Below are positions 694 through 53,224 of a stretch of DNA of 64,000 bases, one piece after another (positions within the stretch are counted from its first letter, which is position 1; each line of letters opens with the position of its first letter). The translations under genes and the position numbers were made by a program. The notes under the pieces were generated by a model. It was not told the origin of the DNA. It searched no databases and was given only the letters and a program-made list of their open reading frames with translations. Source of the stretch: a virus (lineage: Duplodnaviria > Caudoviricetes); the IMG/VR virus record IMGVR_UViG_3300021399_000117, positions 32,001-96,000 of that record, one strand, 5' to 3'.

Positions 694-797
694 AAAAACA
701 AGGAGGATATCTCTAACAAGGTCTTGAAAGCCCTTGGAATTTCATCACAAAGTCATGAAAAACTTTGGGCTTTCATTAAAGATTCCTCCTTGTTTTT
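694..797 (+). repeat. Hairpin (AAAAACAAGGAGGA/TCCTCCTTGTTTTT) enclosing two tandem 31-nt modules (717-744, 748-775)
   Basis: Read directly from the sequence; homologous to elements at 27036, 39339, 48722 and 53161. Confidence 0.85.
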
Positions 798-803
798 ATA
801 TAT
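797..803 (+). promoter_or_regulatory. TATATAT promoter-like word (putative early/middle class)
   Basis: Same word lies 10-65 nt upstream of starts at 19264, 20407, 21982, 27088, 29271, 34067, 34909, 39370, 41152, 46093, 48787 and 53195. Confidence 0.55.
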
Positions 804-834
804 TTATACATTAACAATCAAATTTCATAACAAT

Positions 835-1404
835 ATGGTAATGGTATCAAACATTTTCTTATCAATCTGGGGTTTGTTAATGATAGGCTGCTTCTTATCA
901 TTGATAATTCTTGGTGGATCATCAAAAATCACTCTATTTCAGTATTTGTATCTCAGATTCTTCGCCGAGAAAGAAGACTGGCACAACTACGTCGAAATGA
1001 ACAAGTACATCGATTCGGGTCACTCCATTCCGATTATGGAATTGCATGATTTTACTTATATGCAATGTGATCCAAGTCTGAAAGAAAAATATTCCGAGTT
1101 CATATCCAACAATCCTTATTACTTCCTGATATTCAATACAGCTAGTGGACCGGAGCTGTGTGGATATAGTACGAGTAGTAATAAATGTGACAATATCATA
1201 TTCTCCTCATTCTACCAGAAGTTATGTCTGAAGATGGCTCGCAAAATGGGATACACTCACGACAAGTTATGCTCTATGTTGAAAGACGGTTTGGTGCGTG
1301 AAAAATACAGACGCACGGAAAACGCACGCAGGGTAAATGAACTTGAAGGTTCACTGAAAGAGCTTCATGAGCGTCAGGAACGTTTGAATGAAAAAACAGA
1401 ATAA
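835..1404 (+). CDS. Hypothetical protein with N-terminal transmembrane helix and C-terminal coiled coil
   Basis: ATG at 835 follows the TATATAT word; hydrophobic IFLSIWGLLMIGCFLSLIILG; the track's TTG start at 724 lies inside the repeat hairpin. Confidence 0.7.
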   Translation: MVMVSNIFLSIWGLLMIGCFLSLIILGGSSKITLFQYLYLRFFAEKEDWHNYVEMNKYIDSGHSIPIMELHDFTYMQCDPSLKEKYSEFISNNPYYFLIFNTASGPELCGYSTSSNKCDNIIFSSFYQKLCLKMARKMGYTHDKLCSMLKDGLVREKYRRTENARRVNELEGSLKELHERQERLNEKTE

Positions 1405-25372: not shown

Positions 25373-26677
25373 ATGATATCATTAGATTCATTTGAAAAGA
25401 AACTGGATAAGTTCCGTAATAACAATCCTGAATTGATAGAAGCGTACGAAAGCAAACAAGATGATTCTTTCGATGAATATACGCATGACTTATACCAGAT
25501 GTATGTTAATCTCATTAAGTTAAGACCTACTGCAGATCCTATAGCAACGATTCAATCCGCACTTTGTGAAGCTATCCATAACAATACCAACGTGCTGGAT
25601 GCTTTCGATGCCATTATAGCACGAGCTATGATGGGAGGGGATGATCATAGCACACTTCAACAGTACTTCAAAGAACTCGGACGAGTATACGACAAACACG
25701 ACAACAACTACGACATAGTGTACTGTCCTGAAAACCGGGACAAACTCATCGAGATGAACTTGAAGACGGTCATCAGTATCGCAAAAGGTTACCAAGGCTT
25801 AGGGCTCTCATTGGAAGAACTCATCAGCGCTGGTAACCTTGGTTTGGTTACCTCCTTTGATAAATACGATCCGGATCGTGCCAAACTGAAGGACAACATG
25901 CTGGCTAGTCTAGAAGATCTTCCAGATAATGCAGACCAGGTCACCATTCTCGGGCGGGTATACGAATACATGAAGTACGGAGACATCAAGAAAAAGTTCA
26001 TCAAGACATTTGGTATTACGGAAAAGACCAAAGCTGAAAAAACAGAAGAGTCTGAAGAGGACGAACTGGAAGAGATGATAGGTAAGTCCAAAGCGAAATC
26101 CGAACCAAAGTTGATTGGTTGGAAAGAGTTTACCAAGAACGATGTGTCCAAGTGGATCAAGAAGACCGTACAAAACGCTACTTTCAACTCAGTGGCGTTC
26201 ATGTGGATCCGCGCTTTTATACTAATTGAGATTGATACCAACTCTCGATTGGTCAAGAAACCTAAGTCGGAGATATATAATGACAAACTCAAGTACGGCT
26301 CGTACAAGAAAGAGGTGACTCTAGACATCGATGCACCAGTCAACGATGATGGTAACACCAGCTTTGGAGACATCCTTCAGATTGCGGACGACACCCATAC
26401 GACCATGGATGTGAGCGAGGCATACGATACCTTTAAGGATGGTCTCAACAAACTACTGGATGGAGTCAAACCACGTGATCGTAGTGTATTTCTCAAAAAG
26501 TTCGGCATTGGACTACCACGCCCTATGCTTCCAAAAGAGATAGCAGAACAAGAGAACCTTTCTATCGCACGTATATCACAGATATTCCAATCAGTCATAG
26601 AGCAAATGCAATACAACGCTTCCAAGTATAATATCAATCCCGATATACTATTTGAAGCGGCGCGTAACCTGGATTAA
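25373..26677 (+). CDS. Sigma70-family RNA polymerase sigma factor (RpoD-like) with a region-2 insertion
   Basis: LIEMNLKTVISIAKGYQGLGLSLEELISAGNLGL..DKYD; F..VAFMWIR; region 4 EIAEQENLSIARISQI. Confidence 0.88.
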   Translation: MISLDSFEKKLDKFRNNNPELIEAYESKQDDSFDEYTHDLYQMYVNLIKLRPTADPIATIQSALCEAIHNNTNVLDAFDAIIARAMMGGDDHSTLQQYFKELGRVYDKHDNNYDIVYCPENRDKLIEMNLKTVISIAKGYQGLGLSLEELISAGNLGLVTSFDKYDPDRAKLKDNMLASLEDLPDNADQVTILGRVYEYMKYGDIKKKFIKTFGITEKTKAEKTEESEEDELEEMIGKSKAKSEPKLIGWKEFTKNDVSKWIKKTVQNATFNSVAFMWIRAFILIEIDTNSRLVKKPKSEIYNDKLKYGSYKKEVTLDIDAPVNDDGNTSFGDILQIADDTHTTMDVSEAYDTFKDGLNKLLDGVKPRDRSVFLKKFGIGLPRPMLPKEIAEQENLSIARISQIFQSVIEQMQYNASKYNINPDILFEAARNLD

Positions 26678-26994: not shown

Positions 26995-27035
26995 ACTGTT
27001 CAAAAAAAATTGATGTGCCTTTGGTACTTCGTTAA

Positions 27036-27063
27036 CAAGGTCTTGAAAAACTTTGGAATTTCA
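27036..27063 (+). repeat. Single copy of the 31-nt module core (CAAGGTCTTGAAAAACTTTGGAATTTCA)
   Basis: Near-identical to 717-744 and 748-775; followed by a T-run and TATATAT. Confidence 0.85.
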
Positions 27064-27113
27064 TTAAATATTTTCAGCTTTTTTAGATATATATACATAA
27101 AACAAAAAAGCAT

Positions 27114-39338: not shown

Positions 39339-39370
39339 AGAGGAAATCACTAAAGATTTCCTCTTTTTTT
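39339..39370 (+). repeat. Empty form of the AGAGGAAATC/GATTTCCTCT hairpin (no module)
   Basis: Loop ACTAAA; followed by T-run and TATATAT; same stem at 53161, near-identical at 48722. Confidence 0.85.
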
Positions 39371-39409
39371 ATATATATCTATATGTAGAACATTATTTTG
39401 ATCCTGCAT

Positions 39410-40045
39410 ATGGCAAATTATACTGACAAACAGAAAAACGAACTAACCAAGCAGTACGAACCACTAATCAACAAACTTACCGGCCAGTTTTATACAACCG
39501 TTCAGATGGATTGGGATAGCATCAAGTCCATGGCATACGAAGGATTTGCACTAGCACTCAACAAATACGATGAGTCCAAGAGTAGCATGTCTTTTATGTC
39601 GTTCGCAGCGTTCGAGATGCGTAACAACATCATGACCAGACTCACGGAAGAGGCTCGCACAGTAAAACTACCTTTTGAGGAGCAGAAAAGGCGAAAGGAA
39701 TCAGGAGAACCCTTATTCAACACCGTATCGATCGATCAGAGTGTTCGTGATGACGATGATATCAAACCACGAGAGATCGTGATGGGTATGTACGAGACAG
39801 CCCGATTCGCTGACGGGGATGTCTTCAACTATCTTTACGAACGTCTAGAAGAAAAGTTTCCTCAACGTGAATGCGACATGTTCTATATGTCATTCGGACT
39901 CAAAGGATTCGAAGAGACGCCGAATCAAGACATAGCAAAGAAATTCTGCGTCAGTGAAGGGTTGGTATCCCAAAAGAAACGTAAGATCCTCGATTGGATC
40001 AAAACCGATCAGGATCTGTGTGAGATGTTGTCTAACCTATCATAA
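39410..40045 (+). CDS. Second sigma70-family factor (short, group 3/4-like)
   Basis: YEPLINKL, EGFALALNKYDESK..F.SFA, C-terminal HTH QDIAKKFCVSEGLVSQ. Confidence 0.85.
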   Translation: MANYTDKQKNELTKQYEPLINKLTGQFYTTVQMDWDSIKSMAYEGFALALNKYDESKSSMSFMSFAAFEMRNNIMTRLTEEARTVKLPFEEQKRRKESGEPLFNTVSIDQSVRDDDDIKPREIVMGMYETARFADGDVFNYLYERLEEKFPQRECDMFYMSFGLKGFEETPNQDIAKKFCVSEGLVSQKKRKILDWIKTDQDLCEMLSNLS

Positions 40046-48721: not shown

Positions 48722-48785
48722 AGAGGAGATCACTAACGAAGTCTTGAAAAACATCGGGATTTCATTAAAGATTTCCTCTTTTTTC
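48722..48785 (+). repeat. AGAGGAGATC/GATTTCCTCT hairpin carrying one 31-nt module (core 48737-48764)
   Basis: Direct comparison with the empty forms at 39339 and 53161. Confidence 0.85.
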
Positions 48786-53160: not shown

Positions 53161-53193
53161 AGAGGAAATCACTAAAAGATTTCCTCTTTTTTC
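53161..53193 (+). repeat. Empty form of the AGAGGAAATC/GATTTCCTCT hairpin
   Basis: Loop ACTAAAA; T-run and TATATAT follow. Confidence 0.85.
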
Positions 53194-53224
53194 TTATATA
53201 TATACAACACAGAAATTAAAGTAT

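What the first reader, a model, noticed from the sequence alone, without database searches (positions are those of the whole stretch)
694..797. 31-nt covarying pseudoknot-like module inserted in 0, 1 or 2 copies into a conserved hairpin upstream of putative early genes
Seen: a hairpin AGAGGAAATC-actaaa-GATTTCCTCT, followed by a T-run and TATATAT, occurs empty at 39339 and 53161. At 48722 the same stem holds one extra 31-32 nt module in its loop, flanked by TAA on both sides. At 694-797 a related stem holds two tandem modules with a period of 31 nt. A free module sits at 27036. Each module reads S1a-S2a-S1b-S2b, the H-type pseudoknot order. S2 is invariant (TGAAA/TTTCA, spaced N10). S1 covaries: CAAGG/CCTTG (717), CAAAGT/ACTTTG (748), CAAGGT/ACTTTG with G-U (27036), CGAAGT/ACATCG with a compensatory G-C and one mismatch (48737). 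Known: type III toxin-antitoxin antitoxins are tandem ~35-nt pseudoknots, and phages can carry mimics of them. Inference: this could be a small-RNA decoy/antitoxin mimic, a switch controlling terminator read-through, or a copy-number-tunable TGAAA-N10-TTTCA operator. I do not recognise it as a described family.
Basis: partly seen in the sequence, partly recalled or inferred. Interest (0 to 1): 0.82.

Follow-up and report, generated by a model that had tools for sequence, protein, structure and literature searches.

The report
Self-folding mini-repeat in phage promoter cassettes
A 29-33-base repeat that can fold on itself has spread, singly or in tandem arrays, into the combined terminator/promoter cassettes of a small group of large uncultured phages; it behaves like a tiny mobile repeat, and nothing found here supports an antitoxin mimic or an operator.

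Summary
The window holds four intact modules (717-745, 748-776, 27036-27064, 48737-48765), one remnant (about 27001-27032) and two empty hairpins (39339, 53161).

The S1a-S2a-S1b-S2b order holds. On 43 modules from three phages, both pairings are kept by compensating changes, including S2, which is invariant only inside this window.

The context changes the reading.
- The "conserved hairpin" is a composite terminator plus promoter, like the PeSL cassettes of T4-type phages.
- Its loop (TCACTAAA) is a promoter box at a fixed distance from TATATAT, with or without a hairpin.
- Each module ends in TCATTAA, so insertion in the sense direction rebuilds that box.
- At orthologous cassettes in about nine related phages, module number varies: 0/1/2, 0/scar/1/7, or 0/3 in the loop against 1 in the 5'UTR.
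- One relative holds about 40 copies; others hold almost none.
- Copies occur in both orientations away from the box.
- G-U does not outnumber A-C mismatches. Single modules fold weakly.

No ToxN, Y1 transposase, RegB, Rfam family or host counterpart was found.

Best reading: a clade-specific, REP/MITE-like, self-folding mini-repeat. Its effect on transcripts is untested. Expression data could not be obtained.

The parts
694..797 (+). Composite hairpin (terminator-like) holding two modules, after the stop of the DNA polymerase gene (673) and before the promoter-like TATATAT
   Evidence: Sequence. RNA fold -41.4 kcal/mol, z -6.35. The orthologous hairpin is empty in G001 and four other relatives.
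699..712 (+). 5' arm of the outer stem (CAAGGAGGATATCT)
   Evidence: Pairs with 780-792 in the fold. Conserved in relatives.
717..745 (+). Module 1 (S1 CAAGG/CCTTG, S2 TGAAA/TTTCA), preceded by TAA at 714-716
748..776 (+). Module 2 (S1 CAAAG/CTTTG, S2 TGAAA/TTTCA), followed by TAA at 777-779. Its GGGCTTTCA also matches TGAAAGCCC of module 1.
773..780 (+). TCATTAAA: the end of module 2 plus TAA rebuilds the promoter box (TCACTAAA in empty cassettes) at the usual distance from TATATAT
   Evidence: The box lies 19-27 nt upstream of TATATAT in 39 of 98 sites, against about 0.75 expected from its genome-wide density. See also the alignment.
780..792 (+). 3' arm of the outer stem (AGATTCCTCCTTG)
793..809 (+). 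T-run and TATATATTTATAC promoter-like element. The next gene starts at 835.
27001..27032 (+). Degenerate module. Its 3' part matches the ACGA/TCGT-type module of the relatives.
27036..27064 (+). Module with no enclosing hairpin (S1 CAAGG/CTTTG with a G-U pair), TAA on both sides, 11 nt before the T-run and TATATAT
48722..48779 (+). Cassette hairpin AGAGGAGATC...GATTTCCTCT with one module at 48737-48765
   Evidence: Fold -26 kcal/mol, z -5.0.
39339..39364 (+). Empty cassette hairpin, loop ACTAAA, followed by T-run and TATATAT
53161..53187 (+). Empty cassette hairpin, loop ACTAAAA, followed by T-run and TATATAT

Best explanation
The module is a clade-specific miniature repeat. It is 29-33 nt long, followed by a TAA linker, and can fold on itself. 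It lives in the phage's composite terminator/promoter cassettes, which are PeSL-like. It behaves like a non-autonomous mobile or expanding element, in the manner of REP or MITE repeats.

Shown:
1. Modules sit at a TAA: in the promoter box CA(C/T)TAA, in the CATAA just after the promoter, or at a stop codon.
2. The module's own 3' end, TCATTAA, copies the box TCACTAA. Insertion in the sense direction therefore rebuilds the box at the right distance from TATATAT. The same short direct repeat flanks every unit.
3. Copy number differs freely between close relatives at the same site, with scars and a burst in one lineage.
4. A hairpin (S1) and a pairing between its loop and the 3' tail (S2) are kept by compensating changes.
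5. With modules inside, the outer terminator stem can still close and the predicted structure becomes longer and more stable.

Inferred:
- Arrays grow and shrink by slipped pairing or unequal exchange between the TCAYTAA repeats.
- They move between cassettes by recombination of the kind proposed for PeSLs.
- The self-fold is kept either because propagation needs it or because only compact inserts leave the terminator and promoter working.
- In transcripts the modules are passengers at 3' ends or 5' leaders. They add structure and may shift termination or RNA stability, without a dedicated trans-acting role.
For: Presence/absence at orthologous cassettes:
- After the DNA polymerase gene: 2 modules here, 1 in L065/L066, 0 in G001, L060, L061, L062 and L063.
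- Before the glucosaminidase gene: 7 in G001, 1 in the own genome, a 7-nt scar in L067, and no module in L068 or L069/L070.
- Before the ProQ-C-like gene: 3 in the loop in G001, 1 in the 5'UTR in L068, 0 in the own genome and L067.
- G000 120.7 kb has 1 where G001 has 0.
- The SSB gene leader has 2 in G001 and 0 here.

Burst: 18 loci with about 40 modules in G001, 8 loci in the own genome, and 0-1 in 11-21 kb stretches of the other relatives.

Box and orientation:
- The promoter box sits at a fixed spacing with or without a hairpin.
- All 26 loci are intergenic.
- 18 box-site loci are all in the sense direction. Away from the box there are 5 sense loci against 3 independent antisense events.

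Structure: S1 plus S2 is 86.7% paired, and 0 of 500 shuffles reach the observed covariation. One S1 pair shows AU, CG, UA and GC. S2 pairs show UA/CG and AU/GC/CG/UA.

Strand: G-U does not outnumber A-C (13 against 17-27), so there is no signature of one RNA strand.

Recombination context: gene indels lie next to the cassettes, as described for PeSLs (PMC2839356, PMC4122927).
Against: - No enzyme that could move the element was found. A Y1 transposase (PF01797) is absent.
- Independent insertions at different TAA sites of one cassette are not easily explained by slippage alone.
- Module sequence is well conserved even in the most distant carrier: 27 of 29 positions in L065, where a neighbouring protein is only 57% identical. 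This suggests constraint beyond passive drift.
- Several unpaired positions (GTC, GGGA, CAT) are nearly invariant, as expected if a factor recognises them.
- Whether the modules are transcribed, and what they do to termination, was not measured.
- Only three phages contributed the 43 aligned modules, and many copies are recent duplicates, so the covariation counts overstate the number of independent events.
Confidence: 0.5

Rival explanations
1. Cis-acting RNA element. Folded modules in the terminator loop or the 5' leader tune termination, read-through or transcript stability of early genes, and copy number acts as the dial.
For: - 18 of 26 loci lie inside or directly before the terminator/promoter junction, in the sense direction.
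- Modules lengthen and stabilise the predicted terminator hairpin while the outer stem stays next to the U-run: -41.4 and -26 kcal/mol against -13.7 kcal/mol when empty. In the 7-module array the outer stem still closes.
- Three loci carry modules right after the promoter, at the 5' end of the mRNA.
- S1 and S2 covary.
Against: - The same gene has 0, 1, 2, 3 or 7 modules in close relatives, so no setting is conserved.
- Antisense copies exist.
- G-U pairs are not in excess.
- Single modules fold no better than shuffles (z -0.4 to -1.4), and RNAalifold predicts no consensus structure.
Confidence: 0.17
2. Trans-acting decoy RNA. Arrays of mini-pseudoknots would sponge a host or phage protein, for example as a mimic of a type III antitoxin, and would expand under selection as pseudo-ToxI does in phage TE.
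For: - Tandem direct repeats of about 32 nt with pseudoknot topology lie next to a terminator, as in toxI loci (PMC5086642).
- Copy number changes quickly, as in pseudo-ToxI escape mutants (PMC3475682).
- The unpaired nucleotides are conserved.
Against: - Neither phage has ToxN.
- The proteins next to the three module loci in the window have no PADLOC match, and their only Pfam/PHROG matches are a zinc ribbon and a family of unknown function.
- Arrays mix module types with different S1 and S2, unlike the near-identical repeats of toxI.
- There is no dedicated promoter.
- Many loci hold a single copy.
- A pattern scan of one genome for each of 185,579 species gave only 5 single, chance-level hits and no multi-copy locus. 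The best-scoring hit, which was inspected, lies in a coding region.
Confidence: 0.1
3. DNA-level element. Each module would add an extra copy of the promoter box, spaced about three helical turns (32 bp) apart, forming an array of sites for the phage sigma factor or an activator and so tuning promoter strength.
For: - The module's 3' end copies the box, and the last copy always occupies the box position.
- The 31-32 bp period is close to three turns of the helix.
- The phage encodes sigma-like proteins.
Against: - This does not explain compensating changes in S1 and S2.
- Modules also lie downstream of promoters and in antisense orientation, far from any promoter.
- The five bases 5' of CAT/CGT in the tail vary freely as long as S2a follows them.
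Confidence: 0.1
4. Neutral minisatellite. The complementarity would be inherited from nested duplication of the cassette hairpin, or restored by templated correction of quasi-palindromes, with no selection on folding.
For: - Only 10 of 28 distinct type-A modules have all ten pairs intact.
- A·C mismatches are as common as G·U.
- An imperfect unit was amplified as adjacent identical copies.
- The module tail resembles the hairpin's own arm plus loop.
Against: - All four Watson-Crick pairs occur at one S1 position, and there are several distinct S2 pairings, each matched within its own module.
- A module's own 5' and 3' halves pair better than halves taken from different modules: 0.85 against 0.73 for S1, and 0.88 against 0.82 for S2.
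- The alternative helix favoured by energy shows no covariation, so the signal is specific to S1 and S2.
Confidence: 0.1

Closest known systems
PeSL cassettes of T4-type phages (promoter-early stem-loop; PMC2839356, PMC4122927)
   Same: - Multi-copy intergenic unit made of a stem-loop terminator fused to a promoter, in a T4-like phage (T4-type DNA polymerase, baseplate and terminase genes).
- Gene insertions and deletions between close relatives lie right at the cassettes.
   Different: - PeSLs are not described as carrying tandem inserts in the stem-loop.
- Here the loop is itself a promoter box and is the landing site of a second, smaller repeat.
- The timing (early) of these promoters was not tested.
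REP/BIME and MITE-like small intergenic repeats of bacteria (from general knowledge)
   Same: - Short, imperfectly palindromic, multi-copy, strictly intergenic.
- Both orientations occur.
- Variable between close relatives and often clustered.
- Tolerated at 3' ends of transcripts.
   Different: - Tandem head-to-tail arrays with a fixed 32-nt period.
- A second pairing in pseudoknot order.
- Flanked by TAA.
- Carried by a phage.
- No RAYT/Y1 transposase.
- At 29-33 nt it is at the lower end of the sizes described for such elements.
ToxI-type antitoxin RNA of type III toxin-antitoxin systems and the pseudo-ToxI of phage TE (PMC5086642, PMC3475682)
   Same: - Tandem direct repeats of about 32-36 nt with pseudoknot-type pairing, placed at a terminator.
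- Repeat number changes fast.
   Different: - No toxin gene follows.
- Repeats within one array are of different types.
- More than 20 dispersed loci instead of one.
- No similar repeat found in bacterial genomes.
T4 gene 32 leader pseudoknot (from general knowledge)
   Same: In G001 two modules lie in the 5' leader of the single-strand DNA-binding protein gene, directly after its promoter.
   Different: The orthologous gene in this genome has no module, so an autoregulatory role is not conserved.

Membership tests
Type III antitoxin RNA (ToxI/CptI/TenpI-like) or phage mimic of one | Tandem array of short direct nucleotide repeats | tested here: met
   Period 31-32 nt; 1-2 copies in the window and up to 7 in G001.
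Type III antitoxin RNA (ToxI/CptI/TenpI-like) or phage mimic of one | Repeats, then a terminator, then an endoribonuclease toxin gene in one operon (PMC5086642) | tested here: not met
   PF13958 (ToxN) is absent from both phage genomes. Of the proteins next to the three module loci in the window, none matches PADLOC, and the only Pfam/PHROG matches are a zinc ribbon and a family of unknown function. A promoter separates the repeats from the next gene.
Type III antitoxin RNA (ToxI/CptI/TenpI-like) or phage mimic of one | For a mimic: sequence likeness to a host antitoxin array | tested here: not met
   The pattern scan of 185,579 species genomes gave 5 single hits and no array. The best-scoring hit, which was inspected, lies inside a coding region. 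A diverged host repeat could have been missed.
Type III antitoxin RNA (ToxI/CptI/TenpI-like) or phage mimic of one | Processing into unit-length RNAs that bind the toxin | not testable with these tools
PeSL-type composite terminator/promoter cassette | Conserved stem-loop plus T-run fused to a promoter, repeated in intergenic regions of a T4-like phage | tested here: met
   About 35 such units on the + strand of the genome. The box lies at a fixed distance from TATATAT. The empty hairpin folds at -13.7 kcal/mol, z -4.7.
PeSL-type composite terminator/promoter cassette | Gene indels between close relatives located at the cassettes | tested here: met
   An extra gene after the polymerase cassette in G001 and L061-L063. 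An extra gene before the SSB gene in this genome.
PeSL-type composite terminator/promoter cassette | Early timing of the promoter | not testable with these tools
   No expression data.
REP/RAYT or IS200/IS605-derived repeat | Short imperfect palindrome, multi-copy, intergenic, in both orientations | tested here: met
   26 loci, all intergenic; 4 loci (3 independent events) antisense to their neighbours.
REP/RAYT or IS200/IS605-derived repeat | Cognate Y1 (HUH) transposase in the genome | tested here: not met
   PF01797 is absent from G000 and from the complete G001. The positive controls responded.
H-type RNA pseudoknot | Order S1a-S2a-S1b-S2b with both helices supported by covariation | tested here: met
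   0 of 500 shuffles reach the covariation score, and slid controls drop from 87% to 51% or less paired. Variant S2 sequences pair within their own module.
H-type RNA pseudoknot | Both helices form at once in the RNA (loop lengths allow it; physical evidence) | not testable with these tools
   The 3-nt loop that must cross a 5-7 bp S1 is short. Some subtypes have a competing hairpin (AAATTCC/GGAATTT). No probing data exist.
Any Rfam family (including preQ1 riboswitches and CRISPR repeats) | Match to a curated covariance model | tested here: not met
   No match at gathering score in the window. Only chance-level matches (E 0.7 or more) in the 7-module array.
Protein-bound palindromic operator | Half-sites fixed by the protein's specificity | tested here: not met
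   Both inverted-repeat pairs change on both sides together. Binding itself was not tested.

The most novel reading that the evidence does not exclude
The module is an actively inserting structured element of only about 32 nt, at the lower end of the sizes described for REP or MITE elements. An unidentified phage enzyme would recognise its hairpin-plus-tail fold, move it in trans and place it at TAA. Its design rebuilds the promoter box it lands in, so it spreads through regulatory cassettes without silencing them.
Probability: 0.2. Interest if true: 0.75.

Novelty: new variant of a known kind. Interest (0 to 1): 0.45.

Why it matters
If this holds, it adds a second layer to the PeSL picture of T4-like phage genome plasticity. 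The regulatory cassettes are exchange points for genes, and they are also the habitat of a smaller repeat that copies part of the promoter and folds compactly enough to be tolerated.

It would be one of the smallest structured repeats with insertion polymorphism.

It also gives a natural series of 0 to 7 units in one terminator loop, which could be used to measure how loop content affects intrinsic termination.

It is a caution as well. Tandem "pseudoknot" arrays in phages are not automatically antitoxin mimics.

Tried and rejected
- Rfam: nothing at gathering score in the window, and only chance-level matches at E up to 10 in the 7-module array.
- tRNA scan of the window: none.
- Nucleotide search of the phage collection: no match. 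A protein search found only distant relatives at about 28% identity: Tenacibaculum phages PTm1/PTm5 and Flavobacterium phage MaF61. These, and a 462-kb uncultured phage, have no module.
- IMG/VR pattern scans found only one module-bearing relative, G001.
- The metagenome scan added one more phage, L048; the other hits are copies of G001.
- The scan of bacterial and archaeal genomes gave 5 chance-level hits.
- ToxN, Y1 transposase and RegB are absent.
- PADLOC found nothing for the flanking proteins; Pfam and PHROGs gave only a zinc ribbon and a family of unknown function for them.
- A thermodynamically favoured alternative helix (AAGUCUUGA/UUUGGGAUUU, seen in the fold of 48737-48765) was tested and shows no covariation.
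- RNAalifold predicts no consensus structure for the 43 modules.
- A purely structural scan (5+5 pairs at fixed geometry) is not specific: 27 hits against 11-24 in shuffles.
- An SSB autoregulation idea (modules in the SSB leader of G001) was dropped, because the orthologous gene here has no modules.
- Earlier notes of this scan held no look-alike sequence.

Full report
**Observation.** The sequences are as described.
- Two hairpins AGAGGAAATC-ACTAAA(A)-GATTTCCTCT followed by a T-run and TATATAT are empty (39339, 53161).
- The same stem at 48722-48779 holds one 29-nt module flanked by TAA.
- A related stem at 694-797 holds two modules, 717-745 and 748-776, with a 31-nt period.
- A module with no enclosing hairpin lies at 27036-27064, preceded by a degenerate one.
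- TGAAA-N10-TTTCA occurs 4 times against 0.24 expected.
- The window is bases 32001-96000 of a 131.6-kb IMG/VR phage record estimated 62% complete. The record holds five further module-bearing loci outside the window.

**Relatives.**
- A pattern scan of IMG/VR found one module-rich relative, G001: 197.5 kb, terminal repeats, complete, 78-90% nucleotide identity.
- A metagenome scan added a third phage, L048.
- Protein look-ups added about six more related contigs, L060-L070.
- The nearest cultured phages infect Tenacibaculum and Flavobacterium, at about 28% identity in the polymerase C-terminus. They lack the module.
- Leaders appear to lack Shine-Dalgarno sequences, which would fit a Bacteroidota host (reading of the sequence; inference).

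**Structure.**
- On 21 and then 43 modules, the proposed S1 (positions 1-5 with 16-20) and S2 (9-13 with 24-28) are 93% and 87% paired.
- No shuffle in 500 reaches the covariation score, and sliding the partner by one column drops pairing to about 50%.
- One S1 pair shows AU, CG, UA and GC.
- S2 shows TGAAA/TTTCA, TGTAA/TTACA, TGTAA/TTGCA, CGGAG/CTCCG, ACGA/TCGT and UGCG/UGCA. Each is matched within its own module even when the neighbours in the array differ.
- The pseudoknot order is therefore supported, and S2 is not invariant.

Limits on that conclusion:
- Single modules fold no better than shuffles (z -0.4 to -1.4).
- RNAalifold predicts nothing.
- Only 10 of 28 distinct canonical modules have all ten pairs intact.
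- A·C mismatches are as common as G·U, so there is no sign that one RNA strand is the selected form.
- A subtype (..GTCATAAATTCC-NNN-GGAATTTCAT) has a hairpin that competes with S1.
- In the two-module locus of the finding, TGAAAGCCC of module 1 pairs with GGGCTTTCA of module 2, giving one long hairpin.
- The helix preferred by energy in 48737-48765 has no covariation support.

**What the hairpin is.**
- The motif CA(C/T)TAA(A) lies 19-27 nt (mode 22-24) upstream of T-run plus TATATAT at 39 of 98 such sites in the two genomes, with or without a hairpin. About 0.75 would be expected from its genome-wide density.
- The "conserved loop" is therefore a promoter box. The 3' arm and T-run are the promoter spacer.
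- The whole unit is a composite terminator/promoter like the PeSLs of T4-type phages (PMC2839356, PMC4122927).
- As with PeSLs, gene indels between relatives lie at the cassettes.
- The phage encodes sigma-like proteins.

**How modules sit in the cassette.**
- Every module ends in TCATTAA, a one-base variant of the box TCACTAA.
- The alignment of filled and empty orthologous cassettes shows a clean 63-nt and a clean 31-nt difference, bounded by these 7-nt direct repeats.
- After a sense insertion the last module supplies the box at the normal distance.
- Modules also occur at the CATAA just after the promoter, that is, in the 5' leader (G001 SSB gene, a cREC_REC gene, and the L068 ProQ-C-like gene).
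- One sits at a stop codon TAA.

**Turnover.**
- Post-polymerase cassette: 2 modules here, 1 in L065/L066, 0 in five other phages.
- Glucosaminidase cassette: 7 in G001, 1 here, a 7-nt scar in L067, and no module in L068 or L069/L070.
- ProQ-C-like cassette: 3 in the loop in G001, 1 in the leader in L068, 0 here and in L067.
- G001 has 18 loci with about 40 modules. Syntenic 18-21 kb stretches of L067 and L068 have 0 and 1.
- All 26 loci in the two genomes are intergenic. The 18 at box sites are all in the sense direction. Away from the box there are 5 sense loci against 3 independent antisense events.
- The orientation bias is thus explained by the need to rebuild the box, and does not require an RNA function.

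**Partners and known families.**
- There is no ToxN, Y1 transposase or RegB.
- Flanking proteins have no PADLOC match, and their only Pfam/PHROG matches are a zinc ribbon and a family of unknown function.
- No Rfam family matches.
- No multi-copy counterpart exists in one genome for each of 185,579 prokaryotic species.
- Expression data could not be obtained.

**Verdict.**
- The finding is real and undescribed.
- The best-supported reading is a clade-specific, self-folding mini-repeat that colonises TAA sites of PeSL-like cassettes and expands in tandem.
- Its fold is under some constraint and its effect on transcripts is untested.
- The antitoxin-mimic and operator readings fail the tests that could be run.
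- A role in tuning termination remains open.
- Interest is moderate. It is a neat case of a repeat that copies part of the promoter it lands in, and it offers a natural 0-to-7 series in a terminator loop. It is confined to a small uncultured lineage and no function has been shown.

Noticed in passing
window 39339-39400, 53161-53220 and about 35 other sites of the genome: The promoter-like units share a box TCACTAAA 22-24 nt upstream of T-run plus TATATAT, whether or not a hairpin is present. This points to a phage-specific two-part promoter.
   Followed up: partly
window 25373-26677 and 39410-40045: Two sigma-factor-like genes (Sigma70 region 2, E 3.6e-7; a weak region 4 match, E 0.003). The second sits directly behind an empty cassette.
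   Followed up: no
L041:11551-11989 (G001 191551-191989): The single-strand DNA-binding protein gene (DUF3127, PHROG 4932) of the relative has two modules in its 5' leader, recalling the T4 gene 32 leader pseudoknot. The orthologue in this genome (genome 110716-111075, outside the window) has none.
   Followed up: partly
L036:1336-1668 (G001); orthologue at genome 1117-1446, outside the window: A small protein with a phage ProQ C-terminal-like domain, a possible RNA binder, lies behind a cassette that carries 0, 1 or 3 modules in different relatives.
   Followed up: no
L034:19096 to L035:8685 (G001 59.1-68.7 kb): The relative carries a cluster of 29 tRNA genes. Modules lie between them on both strands, and one overlaps the 5' end of tRNA-Arg(TCT) on the opposite strand. 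The window itself has no tRNA gene.
   Followed up: partly
L043:40-130 (genome 108240-108330) and L041:9300-9400: The antisense module arrays are followed by a roughly 100-nt stretch that is well conserved between the two phages and contains an AGATCT-type palindrome. Its role is unknown.
   Followed up: no
L031:3740-4150 (G001 113948-114374); L061:6936-7310: Several relatives have an extra gene of about 124 aa between the polymerase cassette and the homologue of window 835-1404. This is a gene indel exactly at the cassette.
   Followed up: partly
L067:9935-9965: The cassette loop reads TCATTAA-CGACCGT-TAAAG. This looks like the first bases and the last four bases of the 33-nt module type, that is, a deletion scar.
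   Followed up: partly
L066, L070: Two related contigs come from a sample whose record name says gut metagenome. This may hint at the habitat of the lineage.
   Followed up: no
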